Notes: generated from the sequence alone by a model not told the origin. A stretch of 64,000 nt of DNA from Bdellovibrionales bacterium (GCA_965197425.1 CBDANC010000015.1:64001-128000), one strand, 5' to 3'; numbered from the stretch's first letter, positions 4,523-44,481 are shown. Translations and numbers: made by a program.

Positions 4523-4680
4523 AAGGTCTTCCGAATGAAGCTAAAAACAAGTGGACTTGTTCACTTTGGTTCAATTGGCTCACGGGATAAATCTTTATAT
4601 TATCCAATTGAAATAACCTCCCTGCGGTCGGTTTTTTAGCTGAGTGGTTGCCCAGCACTAGAACATGATACTGATCCCGT
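4523..4680 (+). repeat. Modular palindromic repeat family, full unit containing module B
   Basis: AAGGTCTTCCGAATGAAGCTAAAAA...TTTTTTAGCTGAGTGGTTGCCCAGC...GATCCCGT; about 12 differences from the reverse complement of 6277-6433. Confidence 0.95.
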
Positions 4681-4697
4681 CTCATAAATTATAAAAA

Positions 4698-5954
4698 TTA
4701 CCTAGGGAATATACCTCTTAACTGCATTGCTTTTTGCAACCTTTTGGCTGCAACTCCGATGGAAGCATTTCTAAGATTTAAATCCTTTTCCTTGGAAAAT
4801 TCCCAAACTCTATCAAAGGCCTTCTCCATTGCTGTTTTAAGCCTTTCGTTAACTTCATCCTCTGACCAAAAATAAGACACTACGCCCTGTACCCATTCAA
4901 AGTAGGAAACCACAACTCCACCACCATTTGCCAAAATATCCGGTACAACTATTATTCCCTTTTTGTCCAATATCTCGTCGGCTTCAAAGGTTACAGGACC
5001 GTTTGCTCCCTCCAATATGATCGATGCTTTGACATCATTGGCATTGTGTTTGTCGATAACTCTGTCCAAAGCTGCTGGCAATAATACATCACACTTAAGG
5101 GTCAGAACCTCATTTCTGTCTATTGATTCTCCTCCATCAAATTCTGATAGGCTTTTGCTTTTTCTGTAAAAACACGTCAAAGCAGGGATGTCCAAACCAT
5201 TCTTGTTATATATTCCCCCGAAAGCATCACCTATCGCTACGACCTTCATTCCTCTCTGATAAGCTGAGATAGCTGCATGTGAACCAACATTACCGAAACC
5301 CTGAATAGATATGGTTAGGCCTTTAAGTTTCTTGTTCAACTTCTTACACGCTTGAGTTAAGCAGTATATTGTGCCAAGACCAGTTGCACTGATTCTTCCC
5401 ATGGAACCACCTATTTCTATAGGTTTTCCCGTTACAACACCAGGAACAGAAAAACCTGTTCTATGAGAAAAAGTGTCCATGATCCACGACATAGTCTGTT
5501 GATCAGTACCCACATCTGGAGCCGGTATATCAGTTTCCGGACCTATTATCTGATATATTTCAGTTGTGTATCTTCTGGTTAGGGCCTGAAGTTCAGCTTC
5601 AGAGAGTTTGCTTGGATCAACACAAATTCCTCCTTTTGAACCTCCTAACGGCAAGTGGAGCAATGCATTTTTAAACGACATTAACATAGCAAGTGCTGCG
5701 ATGTGACTTAGATCAACCGAAGTGTGATACCTTATGCCGCCTTTGCAAGGGCCTAAGGTCTGATTATGCTGTACCCTATATCCATCAAAAACTTTAACCT
5801 TATTGTTATCCATACGTATGGGTACGCTTACTACTACAGATTTTCTAGGTTTTAATAACCTCAGCCTAACATCACTGTCTATGCCTATGATATCTGCTAC
5901 TTTTTCAAAATTATTAACTGTATTCTTAAATAGATCACCTTGAAATAAATTCAT
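4698..5954 (-). CDS. gdhA: Glu/Leu/Phe/Val dehydrogenase (glutamate dehydrogenase)
   Basis: GPCKGGIRY, GGSKGG, DIPAPDVGT, QGFGNVG, VVSYFEWVQ. Confidence 0.95.
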   Translation of the reverse strand: MNLFQGDLFKNTVNNFEKVADIIGIDSDVRLRLLKPRKSVVVSVPIRMDNNKVKVFDGYRVQHNQTLGPCKGGIRYHTSVDLSHIAALAMLMSFKNALLHLPLGGSKGGICVDPSKLSEAELQALTRRYTTEIYQIIGPETDIPAPDVGTDQQTMSWIMDTFSHRTGFSVPGVVTGKPIEIGGSMGRISATGLGTIYCLTQACKKLNKKLKGLTISIQGFGNVGSHAAISAYQRGMKVVAIGDAFGGIYNKNGLDIPALTCFYRKSKSLSEFDGGESIDRNEVLTLKCDVLLPAALDRVIDKHNANDVKASIILEGANGPVTFEADEILDKKGIIVVPDILANGGGVVVSYFEWVQGVVSYFWSEDEVNERLKTAMEKAFDRVWEFSKEKDLNLRNASIGVAAKRLQKAMQLRGIFPR

Positions 5955-6111
5955 AAAGCTCCAATATATTTTTGTTAATTCCCTAAGTAATAAAATAAAT
6001 ATTGCGAAAGCTGAATAACAAGTAAGTTTTTAGAAGTCTAGTACAAACAATGAAGATTGTGAAATGGGTTGAGGGGATTGAGTTTTAAAGTGGCTGTGTC
6101 AAAACGTAATT

Positions 6112-6433
6112 CACCTGGCAAAAGTCGGCAGAGCCAACTTATTGCCAGGTTCAATCAGTGCTGGGGCTCACCTTTAGTTACGGGATCGGCACCGTGTCCA
6201 CCAGGAAACAGCCACTCGGCCAAAAAGGAAAGCAAAACTTCCCTTATTTTTTGCTTCGTTCGGAAGCTTTTTAGTAACAGGATCGGCATCTTGTTCCAGA
6301 GCTGGGCAACCATTTAGCTAAAAAACCGACCGCAGGGAGGTTATTTCAATTGGAAAGTATAAGATTTATCCCGTGAGCCAATTGAACCAAAGTGAACAAA
6401 TCCACTTGTTTTTAGCTTCATTCGGAAGACCTT
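6112..6433 (-). repeat. Modular palindromic repeat family, head-to-tail array (two units plus terminal hairpin)
   Basis: On the minus strand: AAGGTCTTCCGAA...GATCCTGTTACT | AAAAAGCTTCCGAACGAAGC...GATCCCGTAACT | AAAGGTGAGCC..CACTGATTGAA plus hairpin CCTGGCAA..TTGCCAGG. Confidence 0.93.
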
Positions 6434-6434
6434 G

Positions 6435-7871
6435 TTACATCCATTGTGAGTCTTGGAACACAGCCTTGTTTTCATTAAAATTATCAGGGGACGGCATCAG
6501 GTACCAAAATTCCTTTACTAACATTGCCAAAGCAGCAAAGGCCAGAATGGTAGCAACCATTCTTTTCCACGGAAAGTTATTTGCTAATATTTGCTTTTTT
6601 TGTATTTTTTTTCTTTTTTTAAGAACTCTAGTTGAAATTACATTCCGGTCCACACTAATTTTTGAAGATAATGTGCTATGTAAACTTATTGTGTCTTTAG
6701 GTTGAAATATTTTTGGGACAGCTCTTGGTGTCCGCACAGAAGATGTATTGCTTTTTGTATCATGTAGTCGCTCCATAGATTTTATTTTGCCCCTAAGCTC
6801 CATTGATCTACTCGGTTTTGGAGTAAAACCAGAAGACAACACTTTTTTATCCCTTGAAAATTCTTTTTTGTATTCTTCTTTAAAAATTTTTCTAAACTTC
6901 TCGCCAAGTCTTTCTGGGTTAAACTTGGGATAATTTATGTTTAAAAATTCATGTAACTTTTCATACAGCTTGAATGCTTCCATTCTTTTGTGTGGATCTC
7001 TTTGTAGCAGTTGCACTACAATGTTATCTATTTCTTCTGGAACATTCTGGTTGATTTCTCTTAGTAAAGGAACTTTAAGATTTAGAATGTTCTGTATTGT
7101 TTTCATTTCATTTGGTCTGTAAAATAATCTTTTGCCATTAGATAGCATCTCCCACATCACAACCCCTAAAGAAAAAATATCCGTTCTGTAGTCAAGATGT
7201 TTGCCTTGAGTTTGTTCTGGACTCATATAGGAAAATTTACCTTTTATGCTAGTTGTTTCGTCTACTCCTAAATCCTCATTGCCGGTTGATACGGCCTTAA
7301 CTTTGCTGATACCAAAATCTAGAATTTTAACTTCACCTTCCCAACCGACCATTATATTTTGGGGACTTATATCACGATGTGCAGGCTTCTCATTCTCTTC
7401 TTTGTCAAACATATCGTATTGGTGGATGTAGTTAAGACCTCTTGCTGTCTCCTTTATGATATATACCACATCTTCTATCTCTAATTTGTTCTCTAACAAG
7501 CCTATGTGTCGTAAACTCCGTTCTTGTTTGTTACTTCTAAGTTTTGTACTTATTTGCTTTAGGTTTCTTCCCTTTATGTAATCAACAACTAAACAGAGCT
7601 CGTTCGAGCCGTCGGAGTAGGCTCTATACGACTTTACCACATTTGGGTGATTCATATTTATGGCAATCTCAACTTCCCTTTTGAAGTACTCTCTAAACTT
7701 TGGTTGGGAAGCATATTTTGGTAGTATCTTTTTTATGGCCACTAACTTTTGTGTCTTTCTGTCTTTCTCGAGAGTTCTGGCAAGATATACTTCTGCCATA
7801 CCTCCAGAAGCAAGCAAAGAAACTAGCTCATAACTGTTGCCTATAATCATGTTGTTATTGTATTTGGGCAT
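6435..7871 (-). CDS. Hanks-type Ser/Thr protein kinase with C-terminal membrane anchor
   Basis: GGMAEVY, VAIK, HRDISPQNI, DFG, YMSPEQ, DIFSLG; hydrophobic segment near the C-terminus; start uncertain (7901/7871/7850). Confidence 0.93.
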   Translation of the reverse strand: MPKYNNNMIIGNSYELVSLLASGGMAEVYLARTLEKDRKTQKLVAIKKILPKYASQPKFREYFKREVEIAINMNHPNVVKSYRAYSDGSNELCLVVDYIKGRNLKQISTKLRSNKQERSLRHIGLLENKLEIEDVVYIIKETARGLNYIHQYDMFDKEENEKPAHRDISPQNIMVGWEGEVKILDFGISKVKAVSTGNEDLGVDETTSIKGKFSYMSPEQTQGKHLDYRTDIFSLGVVMWEMLSNGKRLFYRPNEMKTIQNILNLKVPLLREINQNVPEEIDNIVVQLLQRDPHKRMEAFKLYEKLHEFLNINYPKFNPERLGEKFRKIFKEEYKKEFSRDKKVLSSGFTPKPSRSMELRGKIKSMERLHDTKSNTSSVRTPRAVPKIFQPKDTISLHSTLSSKISVDRNVISTRVLKKRKKIQKKQILANNFPWKRMVATILAFAALAMLVKEFWYLMPSPDNFNENKAVFQDSQWM

Positions 7872-8018
7872 TCCAGCGACCTCGTCTTTAGAATCGGCCA
7901 AAATTAACCCATTACTTTAGGTATTATTATTGTTATTCTAGGTGTAGTATTGCCTTGGGCAATACTGAGAAGTTGTACTTAAAATTGACATCTTTTTACT
8001 ACAAATGGAGTTTATAGA

Positions 8019-8624
8019 TTGAAATGGATCGGTATAACAGGTGGCATAGGAGTAGGTAAGTCTAGTGTATGCAAGATTATTACTGAAAAGAAGCTACCAA
8101 CAATAGAAGCAGACAACATTATTCGTAAAACACTATTGCAAGATCATGAGGTGCAAAATGACATCATCAATGTATTTGGCAAAGAAATTTTAGATCATGA
8201 AGGTCAATTAGACCGAAAAAAGGTGGCTAGCGCAGCTTTTTCGAATAAAGCAAAACTATCTGAATTGGAGCAAATAATACATCCGAAGCTAGCGAATTTA
8301 GTTAAATTAAAAAGGGATTTGCTCAAAAAAAAAGGGTATAAAATAGCTTTTTATGAAGCGCCATTATTGTTTGAAAAACAAATGCAAGATCAATTTGATG
8401 AAATAATCCTAGTTGCAGCTAAAGAAAATTTAGTTATAAAAAGACTTTTAAAAAGGGGATTAGAAAAAAACGACATATTACTTAGAATGAAGCATCAATT
8501 GCCCCAGAAAGACAAGTTAGCTCTAGTATCTTATGTTATTTGGAATAACTCATCACTGTATGATCTTAAAAAAGCTTGCTGTAAAGTTCTAACAGATATA
8601 ACAAAAACAAATGATAAACAGTGA
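8019..8624 (+). CDS. coaE: Dephospho-CoA kinase
   Basis: IGITGGIGVGKS, LDRKK, IIHP, EAPLLFE. Confidence 0.95.
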   Translation: MKWIGITGGIGVGKSSVCKIITEKKLPTIEADNIIRKTLLQDHEVQNDIINVFGKEILDHEGQLDRKKVASAAFSNKAKLSELEQIIHPKLANLVKLKRDLLKKKGYKIAFYEAPLLFEKQMQDQFDEIILVAAKENLVIKRLLKRGLEKNDILLRMKHQLPQKDKLALVSYVIWNNSSLYDLKKACCKVLTDITKTNDKQ

Positions 8625-11208
8625 TATAAATATTAAATTCTTTGGTGATTGGAAAGATCTTAGTAAAGCACTTTCTTCTATAGATATTCAAAAAAACTCT
8701 CTTATTGTATCTGGAATAAAAACTAAAACTGATCTTCAGTTTTATTTTTTAAACCAGCAAAAACTTCCTATGGTTGGAAATTCTATACAAACATTTTATG
8801 AGTTTTTAGAAGATGTCTTATTTCAAGTAAGGCTAGATATTAAAATTGTATCTAGTCACTACATTAAGGCAATGATAGCAAGAGAAGAAAACATGCCTGG
8901 GGCTTCTGAGTCTGTATTTGAGTTTTTAAAACTAATGCTTCCAGCCTTTTCTCATCCTAATGGATTTGAAATAATGTCAGAATGGTCACAAGCTCATAAA
9001 GCCAATATCCGATGGGGAAAATTATTTAAAAAGGCATATAAAGCATATACTCAAATTTTAGATCAAAACATTACAACTCAAGAATTTATACCTGCCCTAC
9101 TCTTTAATCTAGATTTAACCAACATAAAAACAAAAAAAGTGTATTTTTACTTAAGTAGCAACTTAAAACCTGTATATATTCATATCCTAAATAATTTAGC
9201 TAAAAATAATGATCTAACCCTACTATGCCCTACTAAAAATTGGATAGATGAACATGAAGCACTAAAAGTCTATAGAGGACTTAAAGCTTCCAACACATCT
9301 ATCTTATATAAATCAGAAAATAAAATAATCTCTAAAAGATTTACCTCTATGCTATCTGAGGTTAAGGATTGTATAGCACATGTAAGGAAATGGATAGAAG
9401 ATGGCATTGAACAAAAAGATATAGTAATAGCAGCACCAGGTATTGAGTCTTATTGGGAAGTATTAAAAGAACATTTAGACGTTGAGGGCATAGGATATGA
9501 TAGAGCAGTTAAAATACCAATACAAAGTTTTTCCGATGTAACCAGATTAATATCTACAATACGAGCAAATTTAATTCCTTCTAAAAATGATCTACAATTA
9601 GCTATTTTTCACAAAGATAAACCCATTTCATCTTATGATTCTTTTTACGAACAATATGATGTAGTAACCGAGCTAGAAGACTATAAAAGATCTGAAATAG
9701 TCTTTAAATTTATATCAGATAAGTTTAATAAAGAAGCTTTAAGCTTAGATGAGTTTATTGAATATGTATCTGTGATTTGGAAAAAAATAAACGGCGATCC
9801 AGATAGGTTAGCAAAAATTTTAAGTTGTCTTGTTCAAGATAATTTTACTTTCAAAATGAGTCTTTCTAAATGGTTTTATTATTTAGAATCGCTCTTGACT
9901 GATGTAAAAATAACAAAAACTCACCCTAATTTAAATGGGGTAGGTATTTTAGATTTATCTAAATTAGACAGGTTGGATATTAAAAAAATATATCTAATGG
10001 GAGCTACTTATCAAGCAATGAATAGTTTTAAAAGTGTTCCCATCACAAAACAAGATTTAGATACCATAGAAAAAGATACTGGGTTTGTATTAGACTATAA
10101 ATCTAGAAACTTAGAGTTTAATGCAGAGTGGATGTTATCTGGCAATGCTGATGTGGTGATAAGTTTTGCAGAAAACAGCTTTTTTTCAGACGAACTAACT
10201 CCTTCTTACTTTTGGCTAAAATATGCAAAATGCAAATTCACAAGCCAGCCTAAGAAGACAAGATGGGATTTGATTCAAGAAAAAAATGTTAGAAAACCTG
10301 GGCAAAGCAAATCTTATGATAATTACGCGATCAAAAAAACTTTAAAAAAATATGATCTAAAAAAAATATCTGCTACAGACATTGAAACATTTAAGAGTTG
10401 TCCCTTTATATTTTATGCAAAAAAATGTTTGGGATTAAGAGACAATGCTTCTTTAGGTTTAGATTTTAGTTACTTATACCAAGGATCATTTTTACATGAA
10501 TGTTTAGAAGAGTTAGTTAAAGAGCCATTTAAAAATTATTCTAAAAAAGATCTTGAAAAGTATTTAAAAAATAAGATTAAACCTAAGGTTGTGGAGTCTA
10601 AATACATAGATAAATTTATACATAAATATGCTAGAATTCTTGAGAGAGTTTTTGAATTTGAATTAAAAAATAGGGAACAAAAAAATATAAAAACCATAGG
10701 CAAAGAAGTGGAATTCCAAGCTCACTATTTGCCAGACAAAGAGAAGTTTTGTAAGTCAGGTGATGAAATTTCAGTTTTAGTCACAGGTAAGATTGATAGA
10801 ATAGATGAAGTAAAAAATTCTAATCTTCGGATTATTGATTACAAAAGTTCTGGCTCTAAAGTAAGACACTATCAATCTTGGATTAAAAATAATATGCTTC
10901 AGCTAATATTATACTCAATCCTAGCAGACGAAGGTTTTGTGAGGGACATATCAGGAGAAGTATCAGATGCGATGTATTTTAATCTTAAAGATGTTGAGCT
11001 AAAGGGCTTTTGTCTAGATGAAAAATCAAATTCACGGAGCAAAATTTCGCTAGAAGATTTAGGCAAGCTGTACAATTCTTTTAAAGAAATTTTAAGGAGT
11101 ATAATAGATGAAATAAAAAGTGCTGAGTTTGATCCAGCTCCAAGTGACTCTAAGAAATGTGAAGAATGTTATTTAAACAAAACATGTAGGTATAACTATG
11201 AAGCGTAA
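8611..11208 (+). CDS. addB: AddB-like PD-(D/E)XK nuclease subunit with Fe-S cysteines
   Basis: SATDIETFKSCP, GKIDRID, IIDYKS, CEECYLNKTC; coupled to the UvrD-type partner gene. Confidence 0.82.
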   Translation: MINSDINIKFFGDWKDLSKALSSIDIQKNSLIVSGIKTKTDLQFYFLNQQKLPMVGNSIQTFYEFLEDVLFQVRLDIKIVSSHYIKAMIAREENMPGASESVFEFLKLMLPAFSHPNGFEIMSEWSQAHKANIRWGKLFKKAYKAYTQILDQNITTQEFIPALLFNLDLTNIKTKKVYFYLSSNLKPVYIHILNNLAKNNDLTLLCPTKNWIDEHEALKVYRGLKASNTSILYKSENKIISKRFTSMLSEVKDCIAHVRKWIEDGIEQKDIVIAAPGIESYWEVLKEHLDVEGIGYDRAVKIPIQSFSDVTRLISTIRANLIPSKNDLQLAIFHKDKPISSYDSFYEQYDVVTELEDYKRSEIVFKFISDKFNKEALSLDEFIEYVSVIWKKINGDPDRLAKILSCLVQDNFTFKMSLSKWFYYLESLLTDVKITKTHPNLNGVGILDLSKLDRLDIKKIYLMGATYQAMNSFKSVPITKQDLDTIEKDTGFVLDYKSRNLEFNAEWMLSGNADVVISFAENSFFSDELTPSYFWLKYAKCKFTSQPKKTRWDLIQEKNVRKPGQSKSYDNYAIKKTLKKYDLKKISATDIETFKSCPFIFYAKKCLGLRDNASLGLDFSYLYQGSFLHECLEELVKEPFKNYSKKDLEKYLKNKIKPKVVESKYIDKFIHKYARILERVFEFELKNREQKNIKTIGKEVEFQAHYLPDKEKFCKSGDEISVLVTGKIDRIDEVKNSNLRIIDYKSSGSKVRHYQSWIKNNMLQLILYSILADEGFVRDISGEVSDAMYFNLKDVELKGFCLDEKSNSRSKISLEDLGKLYNSFKEILRSIIDEIKSAEFDPAPSDSKKCEECYLNKTCRYNYEA

Positions 11209-15099: not shown

Positions 15100-15196
15100 A
15101 TTTTACAACAACCATATTTTGTAAGACCACACTACGTAACCACCATCTTTTATAACAGCTTGTTTTTTAGAACAACACTTATGGCTCTTTTTTAAT

Positions 15197-15547
15197 AAAG
15201 GCGAGGTTAGCAAACAGCAAATAAATCTGGCTTTGCCAGTTTTTTTGCTGTGAGCGCCTGTTTCCTGGTGGGCCTCACAGCCGATCTTGTAACTCAAGGT
15301 GAGCCTAATGAGGCTAATAAGATGGATTGGTGAAATGCAGGACGAAGTCCAAATGAAACCAAAACATATTTTAGCCGAGTGGTTACCCAGCTCTGGAACA
15401 CGATGTTGATCCCGTAACTTAAAGTCTTCCGAACGAGGCAAAAACAAGGAGGCTTTGTCTTCTTTCAAAGCCTGGTGGTTGCCCAGCTCTTTATGTGGTA
15501 GGTATCTCCCCTTACGATGAAGGATCGGCTGTGAGGTCCGCCGGAAC
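15197..15547 (+). repeat. Modular palindromic repeat family, array of three units plus an inverted partial 3' end
   Basis: Junctions GTAACT|CAAGGTGAGCC (~15294) and GTAACT|TAAAGTCTTCC (~15419); 15522-15547 is the reverse complement of GTTCCGGCGGACCTCACAGCCGATCC. Confidence 0.92.
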
Positions 15548-15723
15548 GTAGGGCCACTTTTCAAAACAAACAAGTCTGTTTATTTCAGTGGCCTCTAAGT
15601 GTTGTTGAACGTAATTTGCCCGACAAAAAGCAAGCAAACTCGCTTTATTGTCAGGCGGGGGTCAGTGCTTACATATAAACTACTTGATTCAGATATCTTT
15701 TGTCTAGTATAAGAGCCTTCACC

Positions 15724-16590
15724 ATGGCATTAAGTAAGAAAAAATCAAAAGCCAAAAAAAAGGCGCCCAAACATTTGAAAAAGAAGACTAAAAAGAAACT
15801 GTCTAAGAAGAAGTCTTCTAAGAAGATAATCAAAAAAGTATCTAAAAAGAAAGTTCCTAAAAAGGCGACTAAGACTAAAAAGAAGACATCTAAGAAGAAA
15901 GTATCTAAGAAAAAAGTGTCTAGGAAGAAGTCTTCTAAGAAGGCAGTCAAAAAGGCATCTAAGAAAAAAGTGTCTAAGAAAAAGTCCTCTAAGAAGGCAG
16001 TCAAAAAGGCATCTAAGAAAAAAGTGTCTAAGAAAAAGTCCTCTAAGAAGGTAGTCAAAAAGGCATCTAAAAAGAAAGCATCTAGAAAAGCAACTAAGGC
16101 TAAGAAGAAAGTATCGAAGAAGAAAACCGTTGGGAAAAAGGTATCTAAGAAAAAAGTGTCTAAGAAGAAACCTTCTAAAAAGAAGCTTTCCGAAAAAGAT
16201 ATTTTAAAAATTAAAGACGAAGTGGAGCAGGCTTTTGAGGAAGAACTAGTAGAACTAAAGGACGCTTTTGGTAACAAACTTTGTTGTTCAAAGGATTGTG
16301 ATCAGGTTGCTACTGTAATGGATAAGAATGGTCAGCATTATTGTAGGTTACATTACATAGCTTTATGGGAAAGCATTCAGATTAGAAACAACATATTGAC
16401 CGGGGACATTTTGAAAAATTTTGTCGATCGGATTGTAAAGCTATATCCTGAAAAATTCTTGGAGATAGTAAGAAAAGATTTGAGCACAGAAAAAGATTTT
16501 ATTACTGCATTACAAGACTTGGATATGTCGGAATTTGCTTCTTTTGATGACCATTTTGGGTATGCCGACGAGGTTTCCGAAGATTATTAA
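15724..16590 (+). CDS. Lysine-rich histone-H1-like protein with C-terminal Cys/His globular domain
   Basis: About 155 aa of KKVSKKK/KKASKKK repeats, then CCSKDCDQ...YCRLHY and an acidic tail; ATG at 15724. Confidence 0.85.
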   Translation: MALSKKKSKAKKKAPKHLKKKTKKKLSKKKSSKKIIKKVSKKKVPKKATKTKKKTSKKKVSKKKVSRKKSSKKAVKKASKKKVSKKKSSKKAVKKASKKKVSKKKSSKKVVKKASKKKASRKATKAKKKVSKKKTVGKKVSKKKVSKKKPSKKKLSEKDILKIKDEVEQAFEEELVELKDAFGNKLCCSKDCDQVATVMDKNGQHYCRLHYIALWESIQIRNNILTGDILKNFVDRIVKLYPEKFLEIVRKDLSTEKDFITALQDLDMSEFASFDDHFGYADEVSEDY

Positions 16591-18870: not shown

Positions 18871-18888
18871 GAGGCCTATGACAAAAAA

Positions 18889-18922
18889 TTCACTTGTTTT
18901 TAGTCTCGTTCGGAAGAGCTTT
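18889..18922 (-). repeat. Modular repeat family, isolated 5' end
   Basis: Reverse complement AAAGCTCTTCCGAACGAGACTAAAAACAAGTGAA. Confidence 0.8.
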
Positions 18923-19126
18923 GTGGTGTATTTTATTGAGATTTTCTAAAAAAAGTTATAGCGATGTCTCTCTCATTTGCTATGATCTTGTTTCATGGGA
19001 TGGGGCTTTCGAAACAAAAACCTTCACAAGGGTATCGACAGTTGTAACACCAACAGTGCTAGTGCTAGTGCTGTTGATGTTGTTGGCGAAGAAGCTAATG
19101 CTAAAAACTTTAATAATAATGAATAT

Positions 19127-19203
19127 TTAGCTCACCTTTATTTAACAAGTCCACTTGTTTTTGCCTCATTGGAAGACCTTTAGTAATGGAATCGGTTGTG
19201 AGG
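19127..19203 (-). repeat. Modular repeat family, junction fragment
   Basis: Reverse complement CCTCACAACCGATTCCATTACT|AAAGGTCTTCCAATGAGGCAAAAACAAGTGGACTTGTT..AAAGGTGAGC. Confidence 0.85.
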
Positions 19204-19290
19204 AAGGTGCAAAAACACAATGTGTTTTAACTACATAATTAAGGAAAACATGAGGTTTACGGAGACCTTTCGCAGCGTAATTCACATAAC

Positions 19291-19418
19291 AAAAACCGAC
19301 TGTAGGGAGGTTATTTGAATTGGAAAATATAAAGATTTATCCCGTGAACCAATTGAACCATCTGGCAAAGCCAGAATTTTTGCTATGCTCAATCAGTGTT
19401 AGAGAAGGCCTTTGAGTT
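19291..19418 (-). repeat. Modular repeat family, unit containing module B
   Basis: Reverse complement AACTCAAAGG..AACACTGATTGA..CTGGCTTTGCCAG TGGTTCAATTGG...AAATAACCTCCCTACAGTCGG. Confidence 0.88.
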
Positions 19419-23344: not shown

Positions 23345-23607
23345 AGGCACCCCCCTACGGGGGGAGGTATTTGATGGTGGTGAAAACATAGGTTATATTT
23401 TGTACTCCACCATTTAAATACCTGTGCCGTAGGCACCCTCCTACGGGGGAGGTATTTGATGGTGGTGAAAACATAGGTTATATTTTGTACTCCACCATTT
23501 AAATACCTGTGCCGTAGGCACCCTCCTACGGGGGAGGTATTTGATGGTGGTGAAAATATAGGTTATATTTTGTACTCCGCCATTTAAATACCCGTGCCGT
23601 AGGCACC
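23345..23607. repeat. Tandem repeat, 3 x 85-86 bp palindromic unit
   Basis: AGGCACC recurs at 23345, 23431, 23516 and 23601; each unit contains CC(T/C)CC-TAC-GGGGG, AGGTATTT..ATGGTGG..CCACCAT..AAATACCT and GTGCC-GTA-GGCAC. Confidence 0.97.
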
Positions 23608-23680
23608 GCTTACCTGCTTTTGCCTTGCGCTATAGCAGATTTGGTGGTATTTGCTATAAAACTTTGATTAAGAGGTGGAT

Positions 23681-26942: not shown

Positions 26943-27285
26943 AAGGTCTTCCGAATGAGACTAAAAGATGGATTGGTGAAGTAAAGGACAGAGTCCAAAC
27001 GAAACCAAAACAACTTTTAGTCTCATGGTTGCCCAGTTCAAAGATAAGCCTAACGAGGCCAAATAAATGGACTGGTGCAACGAGTGTACAAAGTACAAGT
27101 GAAACCAGAACATTGGTTCAATTGGCTCACGGGATAAATCTTTATACTTTCCAATTGAAATAACCTCCCTGCGGTCGGTTTTTTGGCCAAGTGGCTCCTT
27201 CCCGGTGGACCTCACAGCCAATACCCTACCTCTACACATGTCATCAAACTCATACACAAGGTCTTCCGAACGAGATCCAACACTA
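26943..27285 (+). repeat. Modular palindromic repeat family, two units plus a third 5' end
   Basis: GAGACTAAAAG...CTTTTAGTCTC and GGCCAAA...TTTGGCC outer stems; module B at 27114-27178; TACACATGTCATCAAACTCAT shared with 42155-42175. Confidence 0.93.
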
Positions 27286-30031: not shown

Positions 30032-30083
30032 GGCGTTTCTTAAAAGCTTCTATTTTGTCTATTAAAGTTAAATCAGCTTATTT

Positions 30084-30155
30084 GCATCATGAAACAGGCA
30101 TTCGCAACAAAAAGAGAACAAGTCCCCTTATTTGTTGCTCATTAGCCTCACCTTT
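30084..30155 (-). repeat. Modular repeat family, short unit
   Basis: Reverse complement AAAGGTGAGGCTAATGA-GCAACAAA...TTTGTTGC-GAATGCCTGTTTC (variant but paired outer stem). Confidence 0.8.
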
Positions 30156-30368: not shown

Positions 30369-30480
30369 AACACTGATTGAATCTGCTAATAAACCGGCTT
30401 GATTCAATTGGCTTTTCATATTGAAATATGTTCTATCTTTGCCAATTGAAAGAACCTCCTCGATGGTCGGTTTGTTGGTT
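30369..30480 (+). repeat. Modular repeat family, degenerate unit with module B
   Basis: AACACTGATTGAA..TTCAATTGGC...GCCAATTGAAAGAACCTCCTCGATGGTCGGTTT. Confidence 0.72.
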
Positions 30481-32184: not shown

Positions 32185-32465
32185 AGTAAAGCTCTTCAAG
32201 TGAGTCATCAAAAAGTAAACTTGTTTGCTTTTTGGACTCACTGTTGCGCAGAGAACCGGCCCCCGTGAAACCCTTGTTTTGCCTTAAATGCTAGAGGTAG
32301 AAATGAAACTGTGTCTTTGCATAGTTCTCAAGGAGGATCAGACAGTCCGGTAATCAGGTACCCCCTAGCGAGGGAGGTATTTGAGCATTGTTAGCGTTAC
32401 AAAATTTTATTTTGTAAAAGATAGAACGCTTGTCGAACACTTTCACCCTTAGGGTGGTCGGGCAG

Positions 32466-35053: not shown

Positions 35054-35162
35054 GTTCCATAGCTTTAAAGACGATATATAAATGTTAAGGATTTATTCTT
35101 AAGTGTGGTGGAACTAGAGTTTTGATTGATTCAATCAGTGTTGGTAGGAGGGGTTTAAACAG

Positions 35163-35864: not shown

Positions 35865-35869
35865 TATTA

Positions 35870-35931
35870 AAGGTCTTCCGAATTAAGCTAAAAACAAGTC
35901 ACCTTGTTTCTAGCCTCATTAACCTCACCTT
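35870..35931. repeat. Modular repeat family: two 5' ends fused into one palindrome
   Basis: AAGGTCTTCCGAATTAAGCTAAAAACAAG-TCAC plus the reverse complement of AAGGTGAGGTTAATGAGGCTAGAAACAAG. Confidence 0.85.
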
Positions 35932-36048
35932 GTCTGGTATGTTTTTAATTTTTTTGGAAAAATTAAAAGATATTACTGTTGCCTGGTGGCGGGTGCCAGA
36001 TGCAGATAACAGATCCCTGATTACCAGATCCCAGATCTAATCTGGCGA

Positions 36049-36594
36049 TCAGTACAGAGCTTTAAATACCACTAGAGATTTATCGCCGTAAGTTTTTTTA
36101 CTTATCTGGGATAAATTTTGATATGACTCTTCCATGCTGTCATGTTTGCTTACTTGAATTGTTACCAAACCACTTTCTCTTACAACATCACTATTTGAAA
36201 CAGCTAACAGAATCTTATCTGATATTCTTTTTGTAAAAGGAGGATCAACAAATATAATATCAAACTTTTTATCACAAGCTTCTAGAAACCTGAAAGCATC
36301 TTGTTTATACACTGATATTGACTGTGATAGATTAAACTTTTCTATATTTTTCTTTATAATATCTATGGATTTTGTATTATTGTCTACAGCAACAATACTT
36401 TTAGCTCCTCTAGAAATTGCTTCTATTGACAAATTTCCTGTGCCAGAAAACAGATCTAGTATCTCTGCATCTTGTATATGAAAGTTTATAATATTAAACA
36501 AACTTTCCTTTACTGTATCTGACATGGGTCTTATATGTGAAAAATTAAAGCTTACAAGGGTTCTACCTTTTAGACTCCCACTAATTACTCTCAT
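36049..36594 (-). CDS. rsmD: 16S rRNA m2G966 methyltransferase
   Basis: MRVISG..KGR, VKESLFN, LDLFSGTG, DPPF. Confidence 0.95.
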   Translation of the reverse strand: MRVISGSLKGRTLVSFNFSHIRPMSDTVKESLFNIINFHIQDAEILDLFSGTGNLSIEAISRGAKSIVAVDNNTKSIDIIKKNIEKFNLSQSISVYKQDAFRFLEACDKKFDIIFVDPPFTKRISDKILLAVSNSDVVRESGLVTIQVSKHDSMEESYQNLSQISKKTYGDKSLVVFKALY

Positions 36595-37242
36595 TTAAAA
36601 TTCTTTTATACTAACAGTCATACCTTCTGTTGTGGGTAGTATAATGGAAGTATACTTTTCAGTGTCACTTAGTGTTTTGTTAAATTCTCTCATAACTTCC
36701 CAAGCTTGTTTAGATACATCTTTTGTTGGGTTATCTAAATATATATTCTCAAATAGATAAGTATTGTCCCCAATGATTAGGCCACCTTTTCTGATATACT
36801 TAGAGGCCCAATTCAAGTAATCCATGTATCCTCCCTTATCAGCATCAATAAATATTGCATCAAAAGGAGCAGAGCTTTTTAACAAGTTCAAACTATCTAA
36901 AGCATCTCCAGTCATTACTTCACAATTATTAAAACCAGATAAAGCTTTTTTGGCTAAACTTGCATGCTCAGGCTCTTGTTCAAGAGTCCATAATTTCCCA
37001 TCACTTCCCAATGCTCTTGCAATCCAAAGTGCAGAATATCCAGTAAATGTTCCAACTTCTATAACTTTTTTAGCGTTAATCATTTTCAAAAGTAATTCTA
37101 GAATTTTTCCTTCAACAAAAGAGATAGACATTTCTGGATGAATTTTTTCTGCGCTTTTTTTAGCAAAGTTAAAACTGTCATTTTCAATATTAAAAAGCTG
37201 TTTTAGGTACTTTGTTTTTGGTGAGGTTGCACTTTGTCTCAT
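36595..37242 (-). CDS. O-methyltransferase (Methyltransf_3 family)
   Basis: EVGTFTGYSA, FDAIFIDADK, GGLIIGDN. Confidence 0.92.
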   Translation of the reverse strand: MRQSATSPKTKYLKQLFNIENDSFNFAKKSAEKIHPEMSISFVEGKILELLLKMINAKKVIEVGTFTGYSALWIARALGSDGKLWTLEQEPEHASLAKKALSGFNNCEVMTGDALDSLNLLKSSAPFDAIFIDADKGGYMDYLNWASKYIRKGGLIIGDNTYLFENIYLDNPTKDVSKQAWEVMREFNKTLSDTEKYTSIILPTTEGMTVSIKEF

Positions 37243-37253
37243 TAAACTTCTCC

Positions 37254-39875: not shown

Positions 39876-40302
39876 GTGCTATTCTTCTTGCTATGTTGCG
39901 ATCATACCCTTGTGAATATAAGAATCTAAAAATTTTGTGGATACTCCACTCGTTTAAGTTGGATTCTGATTTAGAAAACTTTCTTTTGACCAACTCTCTT
40001 GCCTTTGATAGCTCTAAATCTTCCTCAATTTTCACTTCAGGCAAACCTTTAGTAGATAGGTACTGATTTATGTATCTTCCGCCCTTGTACTTGGAGTTAA
40101 GTCTAGATGCCACCTTCCAGGACAGTTCTTTTGGGGGTATCAAGAATCCATGTTTATCCGCATGCTCTATTGCCTGTTCTACTTGTTCTAAAGAGAAGTG
40201 TTTGCCAAGCTTATCTCTTAGTTCTTTTACAGAGTGATCTCTTGTTGTCACATATCTTATCAATTTATCAAGTGCTTTATTTTTATCTGACATATTAGTC
40301 AT
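39862..40302 (-). CDS. recX: Regulatory protein RecX
   Basis: RDHSVKELRDKL, KGGRYINQYLSTKGL, RFLYSQGY; adjacent to alaS. Confidence 0.85.
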   Translation of the reverse strand: MTNMSDKNKALDKLIRYVTTRDHSVKELRDKLGKHFSLEQVEQAIEHADKHGFLIPPKELSWKVASRLNSKYKGGRYINQYLSTKGLPEVKIEEDLELSKARELVKRKFSKSESNLNEWSIHKIFRFLYSQGYDRNIARRIAHEEL

Positions 40303-40403
40303 TTTTATCTTTCCGATTAAGTAGTTACTATAATTTTCCCATAGTAGCAATACTTGATAATTATCTAAACACAAGTTTTATACTTTGTTTGATATTATAA
40401 AAG

Positions 40404-40880
40404 ATGTTAATAAAGCTTATGAAATTTGTGCGGCTTATTGTAACAGGTTTTTACTTGGGTTTTGCGCCTAAAGCTCCTGGAACAGTAGGCACTTTGCTCG
40501 GTATACCCTTGGTTATTTTGGCAGGACAGTTTGGAGACATATTTTATTTGTCCTTTGTTCTTTTGTTTATTATCGGTGCTATTTTTCTTGTTGAAATTTA
40601 CGAATCAAATTTAAGCACAGATGACTCCCCTGTAGTGGTAATTGATGAGGTGGCTGGTTTTTTGGTAAGCTTAAGTCTCATTCCTAAAAGTTGGGTTTAT
40701 ATAGTCATAGCATTTGTAATTTTTAGAACTTTAGATATCTTCAAGCCATTTCCTATATGTTATTTAGAAAGAAAGATAAAAGGTGGCATGGGCGTTGTGT
40801 TAGATGATGTATCTGCAGGATTAATAACCAATGCTTTCCTACAGATAATTTACCTAAATAACTTGTTTCTAATTAACTAG
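40404..40880 (+). CDS. pgpA: Phosphatidylglycerophosphatase A
   Basis: PKAPGTVGT, VVIDEVAG, FRTLDIFKPFPI, GVVLDD. Confidence 0.95.
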   Translation: MLIKLMKFVRLIVTGFYLGFAPKAPGTVGTLLGIPLVILAGQFGDIFYLSFVLLFIIGAIFLVEIYESNLSTDDSPVVVIDEVAGFLVSLSLIPKSWVYIVIAFVIFRTLDIFKPFPICYLERKIKGGMGVVLDDVSAGLITNAFLQIIYLNNLFLIN

Positions 40881-41050
40881 TTTTTAAAATAATTTCCTAT
40901 ATTCTGTAGGCGTTTTTCCCTTGTTTTAGATACTAAGGGCGTAAGACCTTATACTGAGCGTTAATTTTTCAGTCTGGTGTTAAAAAAGGTATTTTTAGTG
41001 GTGGGTTTATAGTAGGTATATGGCTAAATTAAGGATATATGGGAGGTGAC

Positions 41051-42094
41051 ATGCTTGAGACTAATCGTGCAGAAAGAAGGAAAGCTTTGGAAGTAGCCAT
41101 TGGTGCTATAGAAAAGCAATTTGGTAAAGGTTCTATAATGAAGCTGGGGGATAAAAAAAGCCCCTACCAGAACATTTCTACTATATCTACGGGTTCACTT
41201 TCGTTGGATATCGGGCTTGGTATTGGAGGAGTTCCAAGGGGCAGAATTGTTGAAATATATGGGCCTGAATCATCTGGTAAAACTACATTGGCCTTATCAA
41301 TAGTTGCTCAGTGCCAAAAGGCAGGGGGTACTGCTGCATTTGTGGATGCAGAACATGCTCTTGATCTTTCTTATGCAAAAAAAGTGGGTGTTAAAACCGA
41401 GGATATGCTTATTTCACAACCTGATACAGGAGAACAGGCTTTAGAGATAACTGAGACACTTGTCCGCTCTGGTGGTGTTGATATTTTAGTTATAGATTCT
41501 GTAGCAGCTTTAACTCCTAAAGCAGAGATAGAAGGTGAGATGGGTGATAGCCACATGGGTCTGCAGGCAAGGTTGATGTCACAGGCTTTAAGAAAGCTAA
41601 CTGCTGCAATTAACAGGTCTCATGCGACTGTAGTCTTTATAAATCAAATTAGAATGAAAATAGGCGTTATATTTGGAAATCCAGAAACTACCACAGGTGG
41701 TAATGCGCTGAAATTTTACTCTTCATTAAGGCTTGATGTTAGAAGATCGTCTGTCATAAAAGATGGTGATAGTATCAAGGGTTGTAAAACGACTGTTAAG
41801 GTTGTTAAAAACAAACTAGCACCACCGTTTGCAAAAGTAGAGTTTGATCTAATATACGGTGAAGGTATTTCACAAGAAGGTGATGTTTTAGACCTTTCTG
41901 TTTCCAAAAATTTAGTTCAAAAATCTGGTGCATGGTATAGCTATGAAGGGAACAAAATTGCTCAAGGCAGAGAGGCTGCTAAAGCTTATTTAAAAGAACA
42001 TCCTAATGTACTAAAGGTTTTAAAAAATAAATTGCTTATAATGCATGGAATACAATCTGTAGACGGTAGAAAAGCACCTACAAAAGAAAGATAG
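41051..42094 (+). CDS. recA: Recombinase RecA
   Basis: [39 protein letters not shown] before ATG 41051. Confidence 0.99.
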
Positions 42095-42129
42095 TAGAGC
42101 TTAAAGCAACGTACTGGGTTGGTCGGGGG

Positions 42130-42246
42130 TTAGTGTTGGTGCTCACCTTTGAGGATGAGTTTGATGACATGTGTATGACCGGGCAACCACCAGGCTTTGA
42201 AAGCAGACAGAGTCTTCTTATTTTTTGCCTCGTTAGGAAAACCTTT
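42130..42246 (-). repeat. Modular repeat family unit
   Basis: Reverse complement AAAGGTTTTCCTAACGAGGCAAAAAA...TTTCAAAGCCTGGTGGTTGCCC matches 15421-15484; it continues into the module shared with 27233-27253. Confidence 0.9.
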
Positions 42247-42262
42247 AAACTCAGTGTTGATT

Positions 42263-43153
42263 ATGCTTATTGCTATTTCCGGTGCTAGTGGTTTTATTGG
42301 GGCTAGGTTAAAACAGCACCTGGTTGATTGTGGGTTTTCGGTTCTTTCCATTGTAAGAACGCCTCCTAAAGATCGAGAAGTTTTTTTTGATCCTTATAAA
42401 GATTATTTAGACACAGACAGTCTCGAAGGTATAGATGCTCTGATAAATCTCTCTGGAGCTTCTATCGCCACTCGTTGGAGTAAAAAAAATAAAGAAATTT
42501 TAAGAACCAGCAGAATCAAAAGCACCAACACTTTAGTGAATTCAGTGCTAAAACTTAAAAAACCGCCACAAGTGTTTATTGGGGCAAGTGCGGTCGGTAT
42601 ATATGGTAATAGAGGATCAGAAATTCTCTCAGAAGAGAGCAACATTAATAAAGAAGATTTTTTATCAAAACTCTGCATAGATTGGGAACGTGCTAGTAAC
42701 AGGTTAACTGAAACAAAATGTCGCGTTGTAAATTTAAGATTAGGTCTTGTGTTAGATATAAAAGGTGGAATGCTAAAAAAATTAATACCAATGTTTAAAT
42801 TAGGTCTGGGAGCTACAATAGGGCCTGGAACTCAATACATGAGCTGGATTTGTATAAAAGATCTTTTGTGTTTAATAGAATTTATTTTGAAAAACCAAAA
42901 CATATCAGGTGCTATAAATGCATGTAGCCCGAACGCTGTCACAAATGAGGAGTTTTCAAAAGAAGTAGCAAGCGCACTCAAAAGACCTTGTTTTTTTACT
43001 ATACCAAAATCTTTTATACAATTAATGATGGGTGAAATGGGAAACATTTTGATAACAGGACAAAGAGCAGAGCCAAAAAAAGCAATGAATTTTGGATTTA
43101 AATTCAAATACCCTTTGGTTAAAGAGTGCTTAGAAACACTATTCCATACATAG
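42263..43153 (+). CDS. TIGR01777-family NAD-dependent epimerase/oxidoreductase
   Basis: ISGASGFIG, INLSGA, SAVGIYG, G.GTQYMSWI; start moved to ATG 42263. Confidence 0.92.
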   Translation: MLIAISGASGFIGARLKQHLVDCGFSVLSIVRTPPKDREVFFDPYKDYLDTDSLEGIDALINLSGASIATRWSKKNKEILRTSRIKSTNTLVNSVLKLKKPPQVFIGASAVGIYGNRGSEILSEESNINKEDFLSKLCIDWERASNRLTETKCRVVNLRLGLVLDIKGGMLKKLIPMFKLGLGATIGPGTQYMSWICIKDLLCLIEFILKNQNISGAINACSPNAVTNEEFSKEVASALKRPCFFTIPKSFIQLMMGEMGNILITGQRAEPKKAMNFGFKFKYPLVKECLETLFHT

Positions 43154-43184
43154 TGTATTTTTAGAGACTAACGTTGATAGTTTT

Positions 43185-43784
43185 CTATAGTAGCTCAAAG
43201 TTAATTTTAGAATTTTGTGCAATGGCAATTGGATAATGTTGTGGTAAAAACCAAGACAATGCTTTTAATATTCCAGCATGTTCGGACCTAGGCGGGTTAC
43301 CTAATGAAGAAGCACAAAAACACAGATCAAATTGTTTTTTTTGATTTTTTATAGTTGTAAACTTAACTTGATATACACCTTGATCCAGGAAAAATTGTTT
43401 TAAAATAGATCTTACATAATTTGGTAACTTTGGTTTTTGATTTGCATTTATAACTGAGGTCAAAAAATGGTTGGTTTCTTTAAAATTCCATATCATGCCA
43501 TAAGTAAAAATAAAGTCAGGGAAATGTTTTTGTGGATTAACAACGATACCTACTCCTTTATCATATGCCCAGTTAAGTAATTTTATTGTAGTTTCTTTAG
43601 AGTTCTTGTTGGTTGAGACAAGCATATAGCACATTCCATCAGAACCTTGCCTGGGAAGATTATCATCGACATCTATAAAAATTTTTGGAAAAATATTTAA
43701 AAATGTATTTTCCCATTCCAAGTCTCTGTCTTTATCTTTTATATCTAGGTGTTTTAAAAATTCACTTTGCAACATGTAAGGCAA
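43185..43784 (-). CDS. Hypothetical protein
   Basis: 199-aa ORF filling the gap between neighbouring genes; no motif recognised. Confidence 0.7.
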   Translation of the reverse strand: MPYMLQSEFLKHLDIKDKDRDLEWENTFLNIFPKIFIDVDDNLPRQGSDGMCYMLVSTNKNSKETTIKLLNWAYDKGVGIVVNPQKHFPDFIFTYGMIWNFKETNHFLTSVINANQKPKLPNYVRSILKQFFLDQGVYQVKFTTIKNQKKQFDLCFCASSLGNPPRSEHAGILKALSWFLPQHYPIAIAQNSKINFELL

Positions 43785-43826
43785 AATAAAAGCCTTATCT
43801 TTAAAACAGTCAAGTATAAATAAGTT

Positions 43827-44213
43827 TTAAACTACTTCATCGGTACTGGGTAGTAGGTCAAATAAACACTCTTTAAAATAATTAGAATATTTATTTCCAA
43901 AATTTACATTTAAAGCAAACATGCCATTTCCAAGCATAATAGTTTGTACCACATAGCCACTGATATCTAGGTTCATAGGTTCCAAAGTTAAGGTTATGGA
44001 TTTTCCTTCTAAAGGAGTTAAATTTATATGTCTTCTAAGTTCTATCCATTTCAAATCTACCCTGTCGATGTGTACCAAAAAACTGTCATTAGAGGCGTTA
44101 ACCAAGACAGCGCTATTTGCTATCAAATTAGGAGGGTTAACAGTTCTAACAGATATAACCTTTACACCCACTACATCCTTCACCAAGTTTTTCTTTGAGG
44201 CACCAACTGACAT
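43827..44213 (-). CDS. Hypothetical protein, possibly PilZ-like beta-barrel
   Basis: 128 aa; LVNASNDSF resembles the PilZ D/NxSxxG motif only weakly; GGGG RBS. Confidence 0.65.
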   Translation of the reverse strand: MSVGASKKNLVKDVVGVKVISVRTVNPPNLIANSAVLVNASNDSFLVHIDRVDLKWIELRRHINLTPLEGKSITLTLEPMNLDISGYVVQTIMLGNGMFALNVNFGNKYSNYFKECLFDLLPSTDEVV

Positions 44214-44230
44214 AAAACCCCTTTATAAAA

Positions 44231-44258
44231 TACTCGGATACACCTAGCCTAAAGTTTA
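44231..44258 (-). promoter_or_regulatory. Putative sigma-28 (FliA) promoter
   Basis: TAAA-N16-TCCGAGTA just upstream of 44213. Confidence 0.45.
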
Positions 44259-44389
44259 GGCCTATAATAAAGATATTCTGATGGTGTTTTAGTACAAAAC
44301 AATAGTTGTTGATTATTTATACGATTCGTTTTTTTTGGATCACTTAATGTGTATCAAAATTAATAACATGTATCAAAAATTGACTCAAT

Positions 44390-44481
44390 AAGGTCTTCCA
44401 AACAAGGCAAAAAATAAGGAAGCTATGCTTACTTATTTTTGCCGAGTGGTTGTTTCCTGGCGGACCTCACAACCGATCTCC
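44390..44481 (+). repeat. Modular repeat family, minimal single unit
   Basis: AAGGTCTTCCAAACAAGGCAAAAAATAAG-GAAGC-TAT-GCTT-ACTTATTTTTGCC-GAGTGGTTGTTTCCTGGCGGACCTCACAACCGATCTCC. Confidence 0.92.

What the first reader, a model, noticed from the sequence alone, without database searches (positions are those of the whole stretch)
4523..44481. Window-wide modular palindromic repeat system: fixed ends, covarying outer stem, swappable internal hairpins
Seen directly: at least 9 intergenic loci carry members (4523, 6112, 15197, 18889-19418, 26943, 30084/30369, 35870, 42130, 44390). The pattern is HEAD AAGGT(CTTCCG|GAGCCT)AAYGA, then an outer stem arm, a variable insert, the complementary arm, then TAIL GAGTGGTTG(CCCAGCTCTGGAACA..|TTTCCTGGYGGACCTCACA..)GATCYYGTAACT. 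Units join head-to-tail at an ..ACT|(C/T/A)AA(A)GGT junction. The outer stem changes sequence but keeps pairing: AGCTAAAAA/TTTTTAGCT (4523), GAGACTAAAAG/CTTTTAGTCTC (26943), GGCCAAA/TTTGGCC (27057), GGCAAAAA/TTTTTGCC (44390), GCAACAAA/TTTGTTGC (30084). Inserts come from a small reused set of hairpins in different combinations. Established knowledge: REP/BIME/REPIN, BOX and RPE elements are modular, but I do not recognise this consensus. Inference: a non-autonomous element family whose structure is under selection and whose modules are shuffled by an enzyme encoded elsewhere. Several copies start within about 2-20 bp of a stop codon (kinase, dnaB, OMP, mutS), so they could also act in 3'-UTRs.
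Basis: partly seen in the sequence, partly recalled or inferred. Interest (0 to 1): 0.82.

Follow-up and report, generated by a model that had tools for sequence, protein, structure and literature searches.

The report
Orphan folded-DNA mobile repeat family
About 200 places in this small bacterial genome, and about 150 in its sister species, carry a mix-and-match hairpin repeat with fixed ends and compensating stems; it likely spreads as folded single-stranded DNA, yet no known transposase that could move it was found in either genome.

Summary
Confirmed, and larger than reported. G000 has about 209 loci (33 kb) and sister genome G001 about 152 loci with the same ends: AAGGTCTTC, a stem, GTTGCCCA, then a ~31-nt tail, in head-to-tail arrays. 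Stem columns covary with their predicted partners. G·T pairs outnumber A·C whichever way the neighbouring genes run, and the loops are DNA-type (C-GNA/ANA-G), so one strand probably folds as ssDNA. The repeats have moved: of 811 syntenic gaps, 96 are filled only in G000 and 15 only in G001. There are no terminal inverted repeats and no target duplication. Some insertions replace 1-45 bp; a 66-nt module nests at TT. Neither genome has a Y1/RAYT, Y2, tyrosine recombinase, IS110, reverse transcriptase or TnpB. The serine recombinase, Rpn and four-helix-bundle (FHB) candidates do not track the repeats. It fails the defining tests for REP/BIME, MITE and attC, and has no Rfam match. It works like REP/BIME or RPE repeats but is a new, enzyme-less family. 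Analogous systems occur in other small genomes of the order. The scan reported FHB heptamer cassettes on other DNA before; here those are a separate system. No read data were available.

The parts
4523..4688 (+). Single unit: head H1, outer stem, a2 hairpin (4549-4564), B module, T1 end (4646-4655), tail a
4568..4633 (+). 66-nt B module nested at the T-run of the unit, with TT at both junctions
6101..6433 (-). Three-unit head-to-tail array (H1+a2+B+T1+tail; second unit ending in T2; H2/E hybrid); first head 2 nt after the kinase stop
15198..15518 (+). Array: H2+a5+T2+tail d; H2+three-way D insert+T1+tail a; H1+a1+T1
15519..15650 (-). Inverted remnants (tail d, E 3' end)
18880..19418 (-). Nested, decayed composite: E+a5+B, truncated H1+a2, H2 followed by a fragment also seen beside the giant-gene paralogues, H1 remnant next to the mutS stop; the orthologous gap in G001 shows no such repeat
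26943..27275 (+). Array after dnaB: H1+D+T1; D+B+T2+tail d; tail b; H1 stub
30059..30154 (-). H2 unit with a2-type hairpin
30371..30478 (+). Degenerate E head plus B-like module at the 5' end of ORF 30428
32190..32251 (+).
35870..35931 (.). Chimera: H1 (+) and H2 (-) facing each other across one stem
42130..42245 (-). H1+a1+T1+tail b, then H2 stub, between recA and the TIGR01777 gene
44390..44481 (+). H1 + hairpin + T2 + tail d

Best explanation
This is a family of short, gene-less repeats with two different fixed ends and a covarying stem that has inserted at many new sites; it is likely copied as one folded single DNA strand and pasted in by a structure-reading strand-transfer enzyme acting in trans, probably HUH-like, which is not in either assembly. 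SHOWN: the ends are shared by two species with 69% median protein identity; the stems compensate; the same strand folds best in every gene context; insertions are lineage-specific; there is no target duplication; units form direct arrays and nest. INFERRED: the ssDNA intermediate (from G·T over A·C bias and C-(G/A)NA-G loops); a circular or rolling intermediate joined tail-to-head (from arrays spaced exactly one tail apart); and module swapping by nested insertion plus recombination between copies. UNTESTED: the enzyme. Survival depends on host selection: copies sit at gene edges, and some give the downstream gene an SD sequence.
For: Exact end pattern: 71 matches in G000, 6 in G001, at most 1 in 249 other genomes of the order; 20 in G001 with the longer spacing; 152 loci in G001. 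Covariation. G001 stems: 993 of 1080 cells Watson-Crick, G·T 45 vs A·C 6. G000: G·A 104 vs T·C 4, G·T 36 vs A·C 16. Plus strand more stable in 102 of 114 units as RNA and 85 of 114 as DNA. G·T exceeds A·C in all four transcription contexts in both species. D-type loops in G000 are 49 of 49 (G/A)NA triloops closed by C-G; G001 loops are mostly (G/A)N(N)A. GCGNAGC/GCGNNAGC mini-hairpins are far more stable as DNA than as RNA (PMC13037366, passages). Mobility: 96 G000-only and 15 G001-only of 811 syntenic gaps; 37 of the 96 have a G001 gap of 20 nt or less; identical units at up to 4 loci. Tail-to-head spacing is 8 nt in 28 of 45 junctions. Nested B adds a net 66 nt with a TT overlap, in several host types and in FHB genes. 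The excision-circle and rolling-circle model for BIME arrays (PMC3333891, passages) predicts such arrays.
Against: No Y1/HUH in G000 or in G001 and G002; no Y2; a crude HUH-motif scan found nothing plausible. Insertions in G001 Rpn paralogues replace about 39, 45 and 1 bp, and another replaces about 17 bp; a precise transposase would not do this, though later deletion is possible. No consistent replication-strand bias: G001 75 of 130, p=0.1; G000 73 of 185 the other way, p=0.005, confounded by gene direction. A-type loops are T-rich on the plus strand, so their (G/A)NA form lies on the opposite strand. G·T bias could be inherited, or could reflect G·U pairs in an RNA. Both species fill the same gap more often than chance (14; odds ratio 6.7), which could mean old, host-selected sites. 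No read data.
Confidence: 0.55

Rival explanations
1. No dedicated enzyme: stable hairpin ssDNA pieces are captured at breaks by host repair using 2-4-nt microhomology, and recombination between copies builds the arrays and mosaics.
For: No transposase found. Imprecise insertions that replace target DNA. No site-specific duplication. Rpn nucleases, proposed to make substrates for microhomology-mediated assembly (PMC5350276, passages), are expanded in G001, G002 and G004.
Against: Passive capture does not explain 17 fixed terminal bases shared across species, or unit-length inserts that begin at the head and end one tail later. G000 has only 1 Rpn hit, on a probably foreign contig, plus one divergent ORF.
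Confidence: 0.2
2. The elements are structured RNAs (terminators, RNase sites or a self-propagating RNA), kept by host selection on transcripts.
For: A-type units look like A-tract, hairpin, T-tract terminators (direct reading). RNA folding z is about -2.9. Shared gaps are enriched. Heads 2 nt from a called start codon all carry the AGGA-forming variant, 7 of 7; for all CAT-preceded heads it is 10 of 18 vs 18 of 65, p=0.046.
Against: The folding strand is independent of transcription. Triloops are DNA-type. A-type units are not enriched between convergent genes (12 of 55 vs 9 of 45 D-type). No Rfam match. No reverse transcriptase in G000, G001 or G002.
Confidence: 0.1
3. The elements are degenerate integron attC sites (gene-less cassettes) left by a lost integrase.
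For: Like attC sites, they show conserved fold with variable sequence and a G·T strand bias (PMC5027507, passages). The G001 tail matches 20 nt of the R'-spacer-L' arm of a site that passes my attC rule (L255). B has a TT core.
Against: The attC rule is met by 2 of 189 G000 loci and 2 of 124 G001 loci, vs 1-3 and 2-4 in shuffles, while the positive control passes. No tyrosine recombinase in G000 or G001. Solitary copies break at tail/head, not at G|TT. No co-oriented cassette genes. A few chance hits are expected for that 20-nt pattern.
Confidence: 0.07
4. The conserved 230-aa serine recombinase, or the FHB protein, moves the repeats.
For: The recombinase is the only site-specific recombinase found in G000 and G001 (77% identical) and is present in all four repeat-rich genomes of the family but not in G003. 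G002 FHB cassettes begin with the G002 repeat end in 4 of 4 loci read.
Against: Recombinase genes are not bounded by repeat ends. In 60-kb samples, G193 and G183 (with it) had no multi-copy intergenic repeats, while G211 and G221 (no hit with this query) did. FHB is absent from G001 and from 11 of 11 family-f6 genomes.
Confidence: 0.08

Closest known systems
REP/BIME/REPIN with RAYT (TnpA-REP) (PMC3333891, PMC3733652; passages)
   Same: Hundreds of intergenic imperfect hairpins, mosaic tandem arrays, mismatches kept in the stem, proposed ssDNA-circle amplification. CGTC REPs are reported to lack a dedicated transposase.
   Different: Units are 60-135 nt, some with three-way junctions, plus a 31-nt tail. 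No GTAG or CGTC tag. Arrays are direct head-to-tail, not REP/iREP pairs. No RAYT gene.
Rickettsia RPE, pneumococcal BOX and SPRITE (PMC3184786, passages)
   Same: Similar size, modular (BOX), in-frame insertion into genes (B in FHB genes), uncertain mobiliser.
   Different: Fixed asymmetric ends, a cross-species covarying stem and nested sister families. Sequence relation not tested, as no library was available.
Integron attC sites (PMC5027507, passages)
   Same: Structure conserved while sequence varies; one strand favoured by G·T pairs; TT core for B.
   Different: Box geometry at chance level, no integrase, no cassette genes, different breakpoint.
IS200/IS605 ssDNA elements and their non-autonomous derivatives (recalled; abstract start of PMC6006769 seen)
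   Same: No inverted repeats, no target duplication, asymmetric ends, short biased sequence 5' of the left end.
   Different: No TnpA, no consistent lagging-strand bias, some insertions delete target DNA.
FHB (PF05635/TIGR02436) cassettes with 7-8-nt arms (earlier scan notes)
   Same: About 20 such cassettes exist in G000; B has inserted into five; they are fused to the analogous repeat in G002.
   Different: This family has no heptamer arms and is dense in G001, which has no FHB gene.

Membership tests
REP/BIME (RAYT-associated) | High-copy intergenic imperfect palindromes, often in arrays | tested here: met
REP/BIME (RAYT-associated) | GTAG (or CGTC) tetranucleotide at the foot of a 20-40-nt hairpin | tested here: not met
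   The ends are AAGGTCTTC and GTTGCCCA; units are 60-135 nt
REP/BIME (RAYT-associated) | REP/iREP inverted pairs | tested here: not met
   Arrays are mainly direct head-to-tail
REP/BIME (RAYT-associated) | Y1 transposase gene flanked by the repeats | tested here: not met
   0 in G000, G001 and G002; the G004 Y1 gene is not flanked; G000 is in 15 contigs, so an unassembled gene is possible
Classical MITE (DDE) | Terminal inverted repeats | tested here: not met
   Left and right ends are unrelated
Classical MITE (DDE) | Target-site duplication | tested here: not met
   Match of 5 nt or more in 4 of 52 vs 1.5 shuffled; end-register test not significant, n=26 and n=43; filled/empty pairs show replacement
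IS200/IS605-type non-autonomous element | Strand-specific ssDNA hairpins, no inverted repeats, no duplication | tested here: met
IS200/IS605-type non-autonomous element | Fixed 4-5-nt target 5' of the left end | tested here: inconclusive
   Only position -2 (T, about 70%) and -1 (A/C) are biased, and these may belong to the element
IS200/IS605-type non-autonomous element | Lagging-strand-template bias | tested here: inconclusive
   Opposite weak trends in the two genomes
IS200/IS605-type non-autonomous element | Cognate TnpA with the same ends | tested here: not met
Integron attC | R''-5-L''...L'-5/6-R' geometry with an extrahelical base | tested here: not met
   Chance-level passes; positive control passes; home-made rule, not IntegronFinder
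Integron attC | Integrase and co-oriented cassette genes | tested here: not met
IS110/IS1111 derivative | Cognate IS110 recombinase | tested here: not met
   0 in G000, G001, G002 and G004
IS607-like / serine-recombinase element | Recombinase gene bounded by the same ends and co-occurring with the repeats | tested here: not met
FHB/IVS heptamer cassette | 7-8-nt tandem arms and dependence on a PF05635 gene | tested here: not met
Known structured RNA | Rfam match | tested here: not met
Known structured RNA | Discrete transcript | not testable with these tools
   No sequencing runs were available
RPE/BOX-type repeats | Sequence homology to described families | not testable with these tools
   No ISfinder or REP library here

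The most novel reading that the evidence does not exclude
Reduced-genome members of this order carry a class of structure-read ssDNA mobile cassettes. Each lineage has its own ends; they nest and swap modules, rewire ribosome-binding sites, and are moved by a host or still unrecognised enzyme unrelated to HUH, tyrosine, serine, DDE or IS110 recombinases.
Probability: 0.2. Interest if true: 0.85.

Novelty: new variant of a known kind. Interest (0 to 1): 0.55.

Why it matters
How transposase-less palindromic repeats (CGTC REPs, RPE, BOX) spread is an open question. Here two small genomes, one of them a single contig, hold 150-200 structurally intact copies and none of the usual enzymes. That leaves a short list of about 1,000 shared proteins and a precise predicted substrate: the plus-strand fold and the tail/head junction. 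A structure-specific, sequence-tolerant DNA insertion activity would be of mechanistic and tool interest. The repeats also reshape operon junctions and may supply ribosome-binding sites.

Tried and rejected
Enzyme searches of G000: Y1, tyrosine recombinase, reverse transcriptase, IS110, Y2, DUF559 and the TnpB zinc ribbon (63) were blank. GIY-YIG gave only a 612-aa UvrC-sized protein. HNH gave one 92-aa gene beside a conserved gene pair (topoisomerase VI-like by my reading), with no flanking ends. An IS1595-like N-terminal fragment lies on C13, and an IS1634-like ORF lies on probably foreign contig C11 (66; family names recalled). rve, DDE_Tnp_1, DDE_3 and Cas1 were not searched. The Pfam scan covered 129 proteins: 128 of the 132 basic, soluble G000/G001 orthologues that my filter picked out of 1031, plus the serine recombinase. 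It gave only that recombinase and Rpn as transposase- or recombinase-type hits. None of the 21 ORFs flanked by repeats on both sides looked like a mobiliser from their N-termini; one is an FHB gene. BLASTN of a window array found 0 of 60 relatives, missing G001 because its stems have diverged. A profile of G000 D units found 9 G001 loci and 0 in about 0.94 Mb of G002, G004 and f6 DNA (107), so homology beyond the genus is not shown. Collection scans: metagenome 0 and 3 (105; no element, two are one attC-like site); viral 28 single hits without a convincing stem and 0; genome contigs 0. An HDV-like ribozyme (motif recalled) was rejected by eye: no P1 partner and no fixed catalytic C. Sigma70 and sigma54 spacing were not conserved across variants (by eye); the promoter/terminator scan of 42-46 kb was at chance. 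The first stem-register script (45) weighted G·T and A·C equally and was replaced. In one search, the H1, T2, E3 and tail-c patterns had high control counts and were not used for totals. The 60-kb sampling test (91) is insensitive: G001 scored 1 of 20, and the G002/G004 samples were chosen around FHB genes. Paper searches listed nothing on this family; the library lacks most subscription journals.
Full report
OBSERVATION. The window is G000:C15:64001-128000 of a 1.60-Mb, 35% GC assembly in 15 contigs, 99% complete. Earlier scan notes call it a Bdellovibrio relative; I did not test this, though the tmRNA tag GNDYALAA fits what I recall for Bdellovibrio. All nine cited loci read as described, far above chance. 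The neighbours are housekeeping genes such as mutL, mutS, dnaB and recA.

EXTENT AND ANATOMY. BLAST with window copies gave 167 merged loci; one iteration gave 209 loci, 33 kb. The main unit is head AAGGTCTTC, an outer stem, an inner insert, the stem's other arm, GTTGCCCAG and a tail of about 30 nt. 136 un-nested head-tail matches fall mainly into classes of 61-67 nt (simple hairpin), 90-97 nt (three-way junction, D) and 131-133 nt (hairpin plus B). Sister families (head AAGGTGAG with a GCCTGTTTC-type end; E; B) share the inner hairpins. 154 classified units give 48 head+insert+tail combinations. The next head follows 8 nt after the tail's GATCC in 28 of 45 junctions.

STRUCTURE. In 79 distinct units, four stem pairs have mutual information 0.37-0.87 vs shuffle maxima of 0.14-0.23. 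The predicted partner scores best for seven of the eight variable head columns, and two positions are usually tandem G·A (relatedness not modelled). Non-canonical cells favour the plus strand: G·A 104 vs T·C 4 and G·T 36 vs A·C 16 in G000; G·T 45 vs A·C 6 in 90 G001 cores. The bias holds in all four gene contexts in both species, so it is not set by host transcription, though it could be inherited. D-type loops are C-(G/A)NA-G triloops in 49 of 49 G000 cases, and G001 loops are mostly (G/A)N(N)A. Such mini-hairpins are much more stable as DNA than as RNA (PMC13037366, passages). Against this, A-type loops are T-rich on the plus strand.

RELATIVES. BLASTN missed all 60 relatives, but an ends-only pattern found G001, the other genome of the genus. 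With G001 read almost whole (1999 bases missing), it has 152 loci, nearly all D-type, with a 31-nt tail and arrays of up to 6. G000 D cores and G001 cores have about 49% median identity. G002 and G004 carry an analogous stem-plus-tail system with other ends (698 and 222 matches of its end motif). G000 contigs C1, C4 and C11 carry that type and have few orthologues, so they are probably foreign. G185, G211, G221 and G237 have long-hairpin families of their own. Homology outside the genus is not shown.

MOBILITY. Among 811 syntenic gene gaps, 96 are filled only in G000, 15 only in G001, 14 in both and 686 in neither. In 37 of the 96, the G001 gap is 20 nt or less, including 9 four-base overlaps (ORF calls are crude). 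The 14 shared gaps exceed chance (odds ratio 6.7). In the parts I read, position or orientation mostly differed, but I did not test this formally. There is no site-specific duplication. Three G001 insertions into Rpn paralogues replace about 39, 45 and 1 bp, and a fourth pair replaces about 17 bp. B adds a net 66 nt with TT at both junctions, at the same structural position in many host units. It also lies in 5 of 20 FHB copies, in frame in four, possibly from one event. Of 138 first heads, 10 overlap a stop codon, 11 lie 5-6 nt after one, and 7 lie 2 nt from an opposite-strand start codon. All 7 carry the variant whose reverse strand reads AGGA about 7 nt before the ATG (looser test p=0.046).

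ENZYME HUNT. G000 and G001 lack Y1, Y2, tyrosine recombinase, IS110, reverse transcriptase and TnpB hits. A 230-aa serine recombinase is shared and occurs in 10 of 251 genomes of the order, including all four repeat-rich family members. It is not bounded by the ends, and its presence did not predict repeats in 60-kb samples of six carriers and six non-carriers. FHB genes (TIGR02436; weak match to 2gsc) number 19, 0, 14, 0 and 19 in G000-G004 and 0 in 11 f6 genomes. Rpn numbers 1, 16, 16, 0 and 19 in G000-G004; RpnA shows no sequence or cruciform preference (PMC5350276, passages). G211, G221 and G237 also lack Y1. DDE and Cas1 families were not searched, and only 129 proteins were scanned with Pfam.

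MECHANISM. The best reading is a non-autonomous element that is copied as a folded plus strand, probably through a tail-to-head circle or rolling intermediate as modelled for BIMEs (PMC3333891, passages), and inserted without duplication by a structure-reading enzyme in trans. Nesting and recombination between copies would produce the mosaics, and host selection would keep copies at gene edges. The fold bias, mobility, arrays and lack of duplication are shown. The ssDNA intermediate and circle are inferred. The enzyme is unidentified. Repair-mediated capture, an RNA role, attC ancestry and the serine recombinase or FHB are weaker rivals.

COMPARISON. It works like REP/BIME and RPE/BOX repeats (PMC3733652 and PMC3184786, passages), and the former paper notes that CGTC REPs lack a dedicated transposase. 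It fails the defining tests for REP/BIME, MITE, attC (PMC5027507, passages), IS110 derivatives and FHB cassettes, and has no Rfam match. Nine paper searches listed no description of it. No supplements were read; repeat lists in them could bear on novelty.

VERDICT. The feature is real, a new sequence family and a new variant of a known kind. Interest is 0.55. It rises if the missing enzyme proves to be of a new type. Expression and strain polymorphism remain open, as no read data were available.

Noticed in passing
window 23360-23614: Three tandem 85-bp copies of an unrelated repeat (two identical), with further copies on C12, C14 and C15.
   Followed up: no
window 35932-36060: Gene-less FHB-type flank, similar to the downstream flank of the FHB gene at G000:C15:352879.
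   Followed up: partly
G000, 20 sites (e.g. C15:391933-392244): Dispersed FHB genes with 7-8-nt tandem arms and a long hairpin over the RBS and start codon; two copies are 98% identical.
   Followed up: partly
G000 and G001, whole genomes: No tyrosine recombinase (no XerC/D) despite FtsK; a conserved small serine recombinase beside a dCTP-deaminase-like gene could be the substitute.
   Followed up: partly
window 18930-19125: Fragment matching the sequence beside the giant-gene paralogues, embedded in a repeat composite after mutS.
   Followed up: no
G000 contigs C1, C4, C11 (and C10): C1, C4 and C11 carry G002/G004-type repeats, and C11 has a second ribosomal-protein cluster, so they are probably another organism; C10 looks phage-like.
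   Followed up: partly
window 15700-16590: Lysine-rich, histone-H1-like repeat protein; several similar ORFs elsewhere in G000.
   Followed up: no
L205:10996, L207:7416, L191, L199:2355, L208:3779: Other long-hairpin repeat families with covarying-looking stems in G211, G237, G185 and G221; G211 and G237 share a motif; no Rfam match in L205, L207 or L191.
   Followed up: partly
G001 (e.g. 75073, 112867, 325996, 406159, 534110, 1387178): A longer, near-identical repeated segment with its own hairpins, at six or more loci.
   Followed up: no
G001, G002, G004: 16-19 Rpn/YhgA paralogues each; at least four in G001 are interrupted by the repeat.
   Followed up: partly
L197, L198 (G229): Short palindrome resembling Neisseria dRS3 or Rickettsia repeats (resemblance recalled).
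   Followed up: no
L208:3374-3776 (G221): Long 10-bp tandem arrays in a repeated leader.
   Followed up: no
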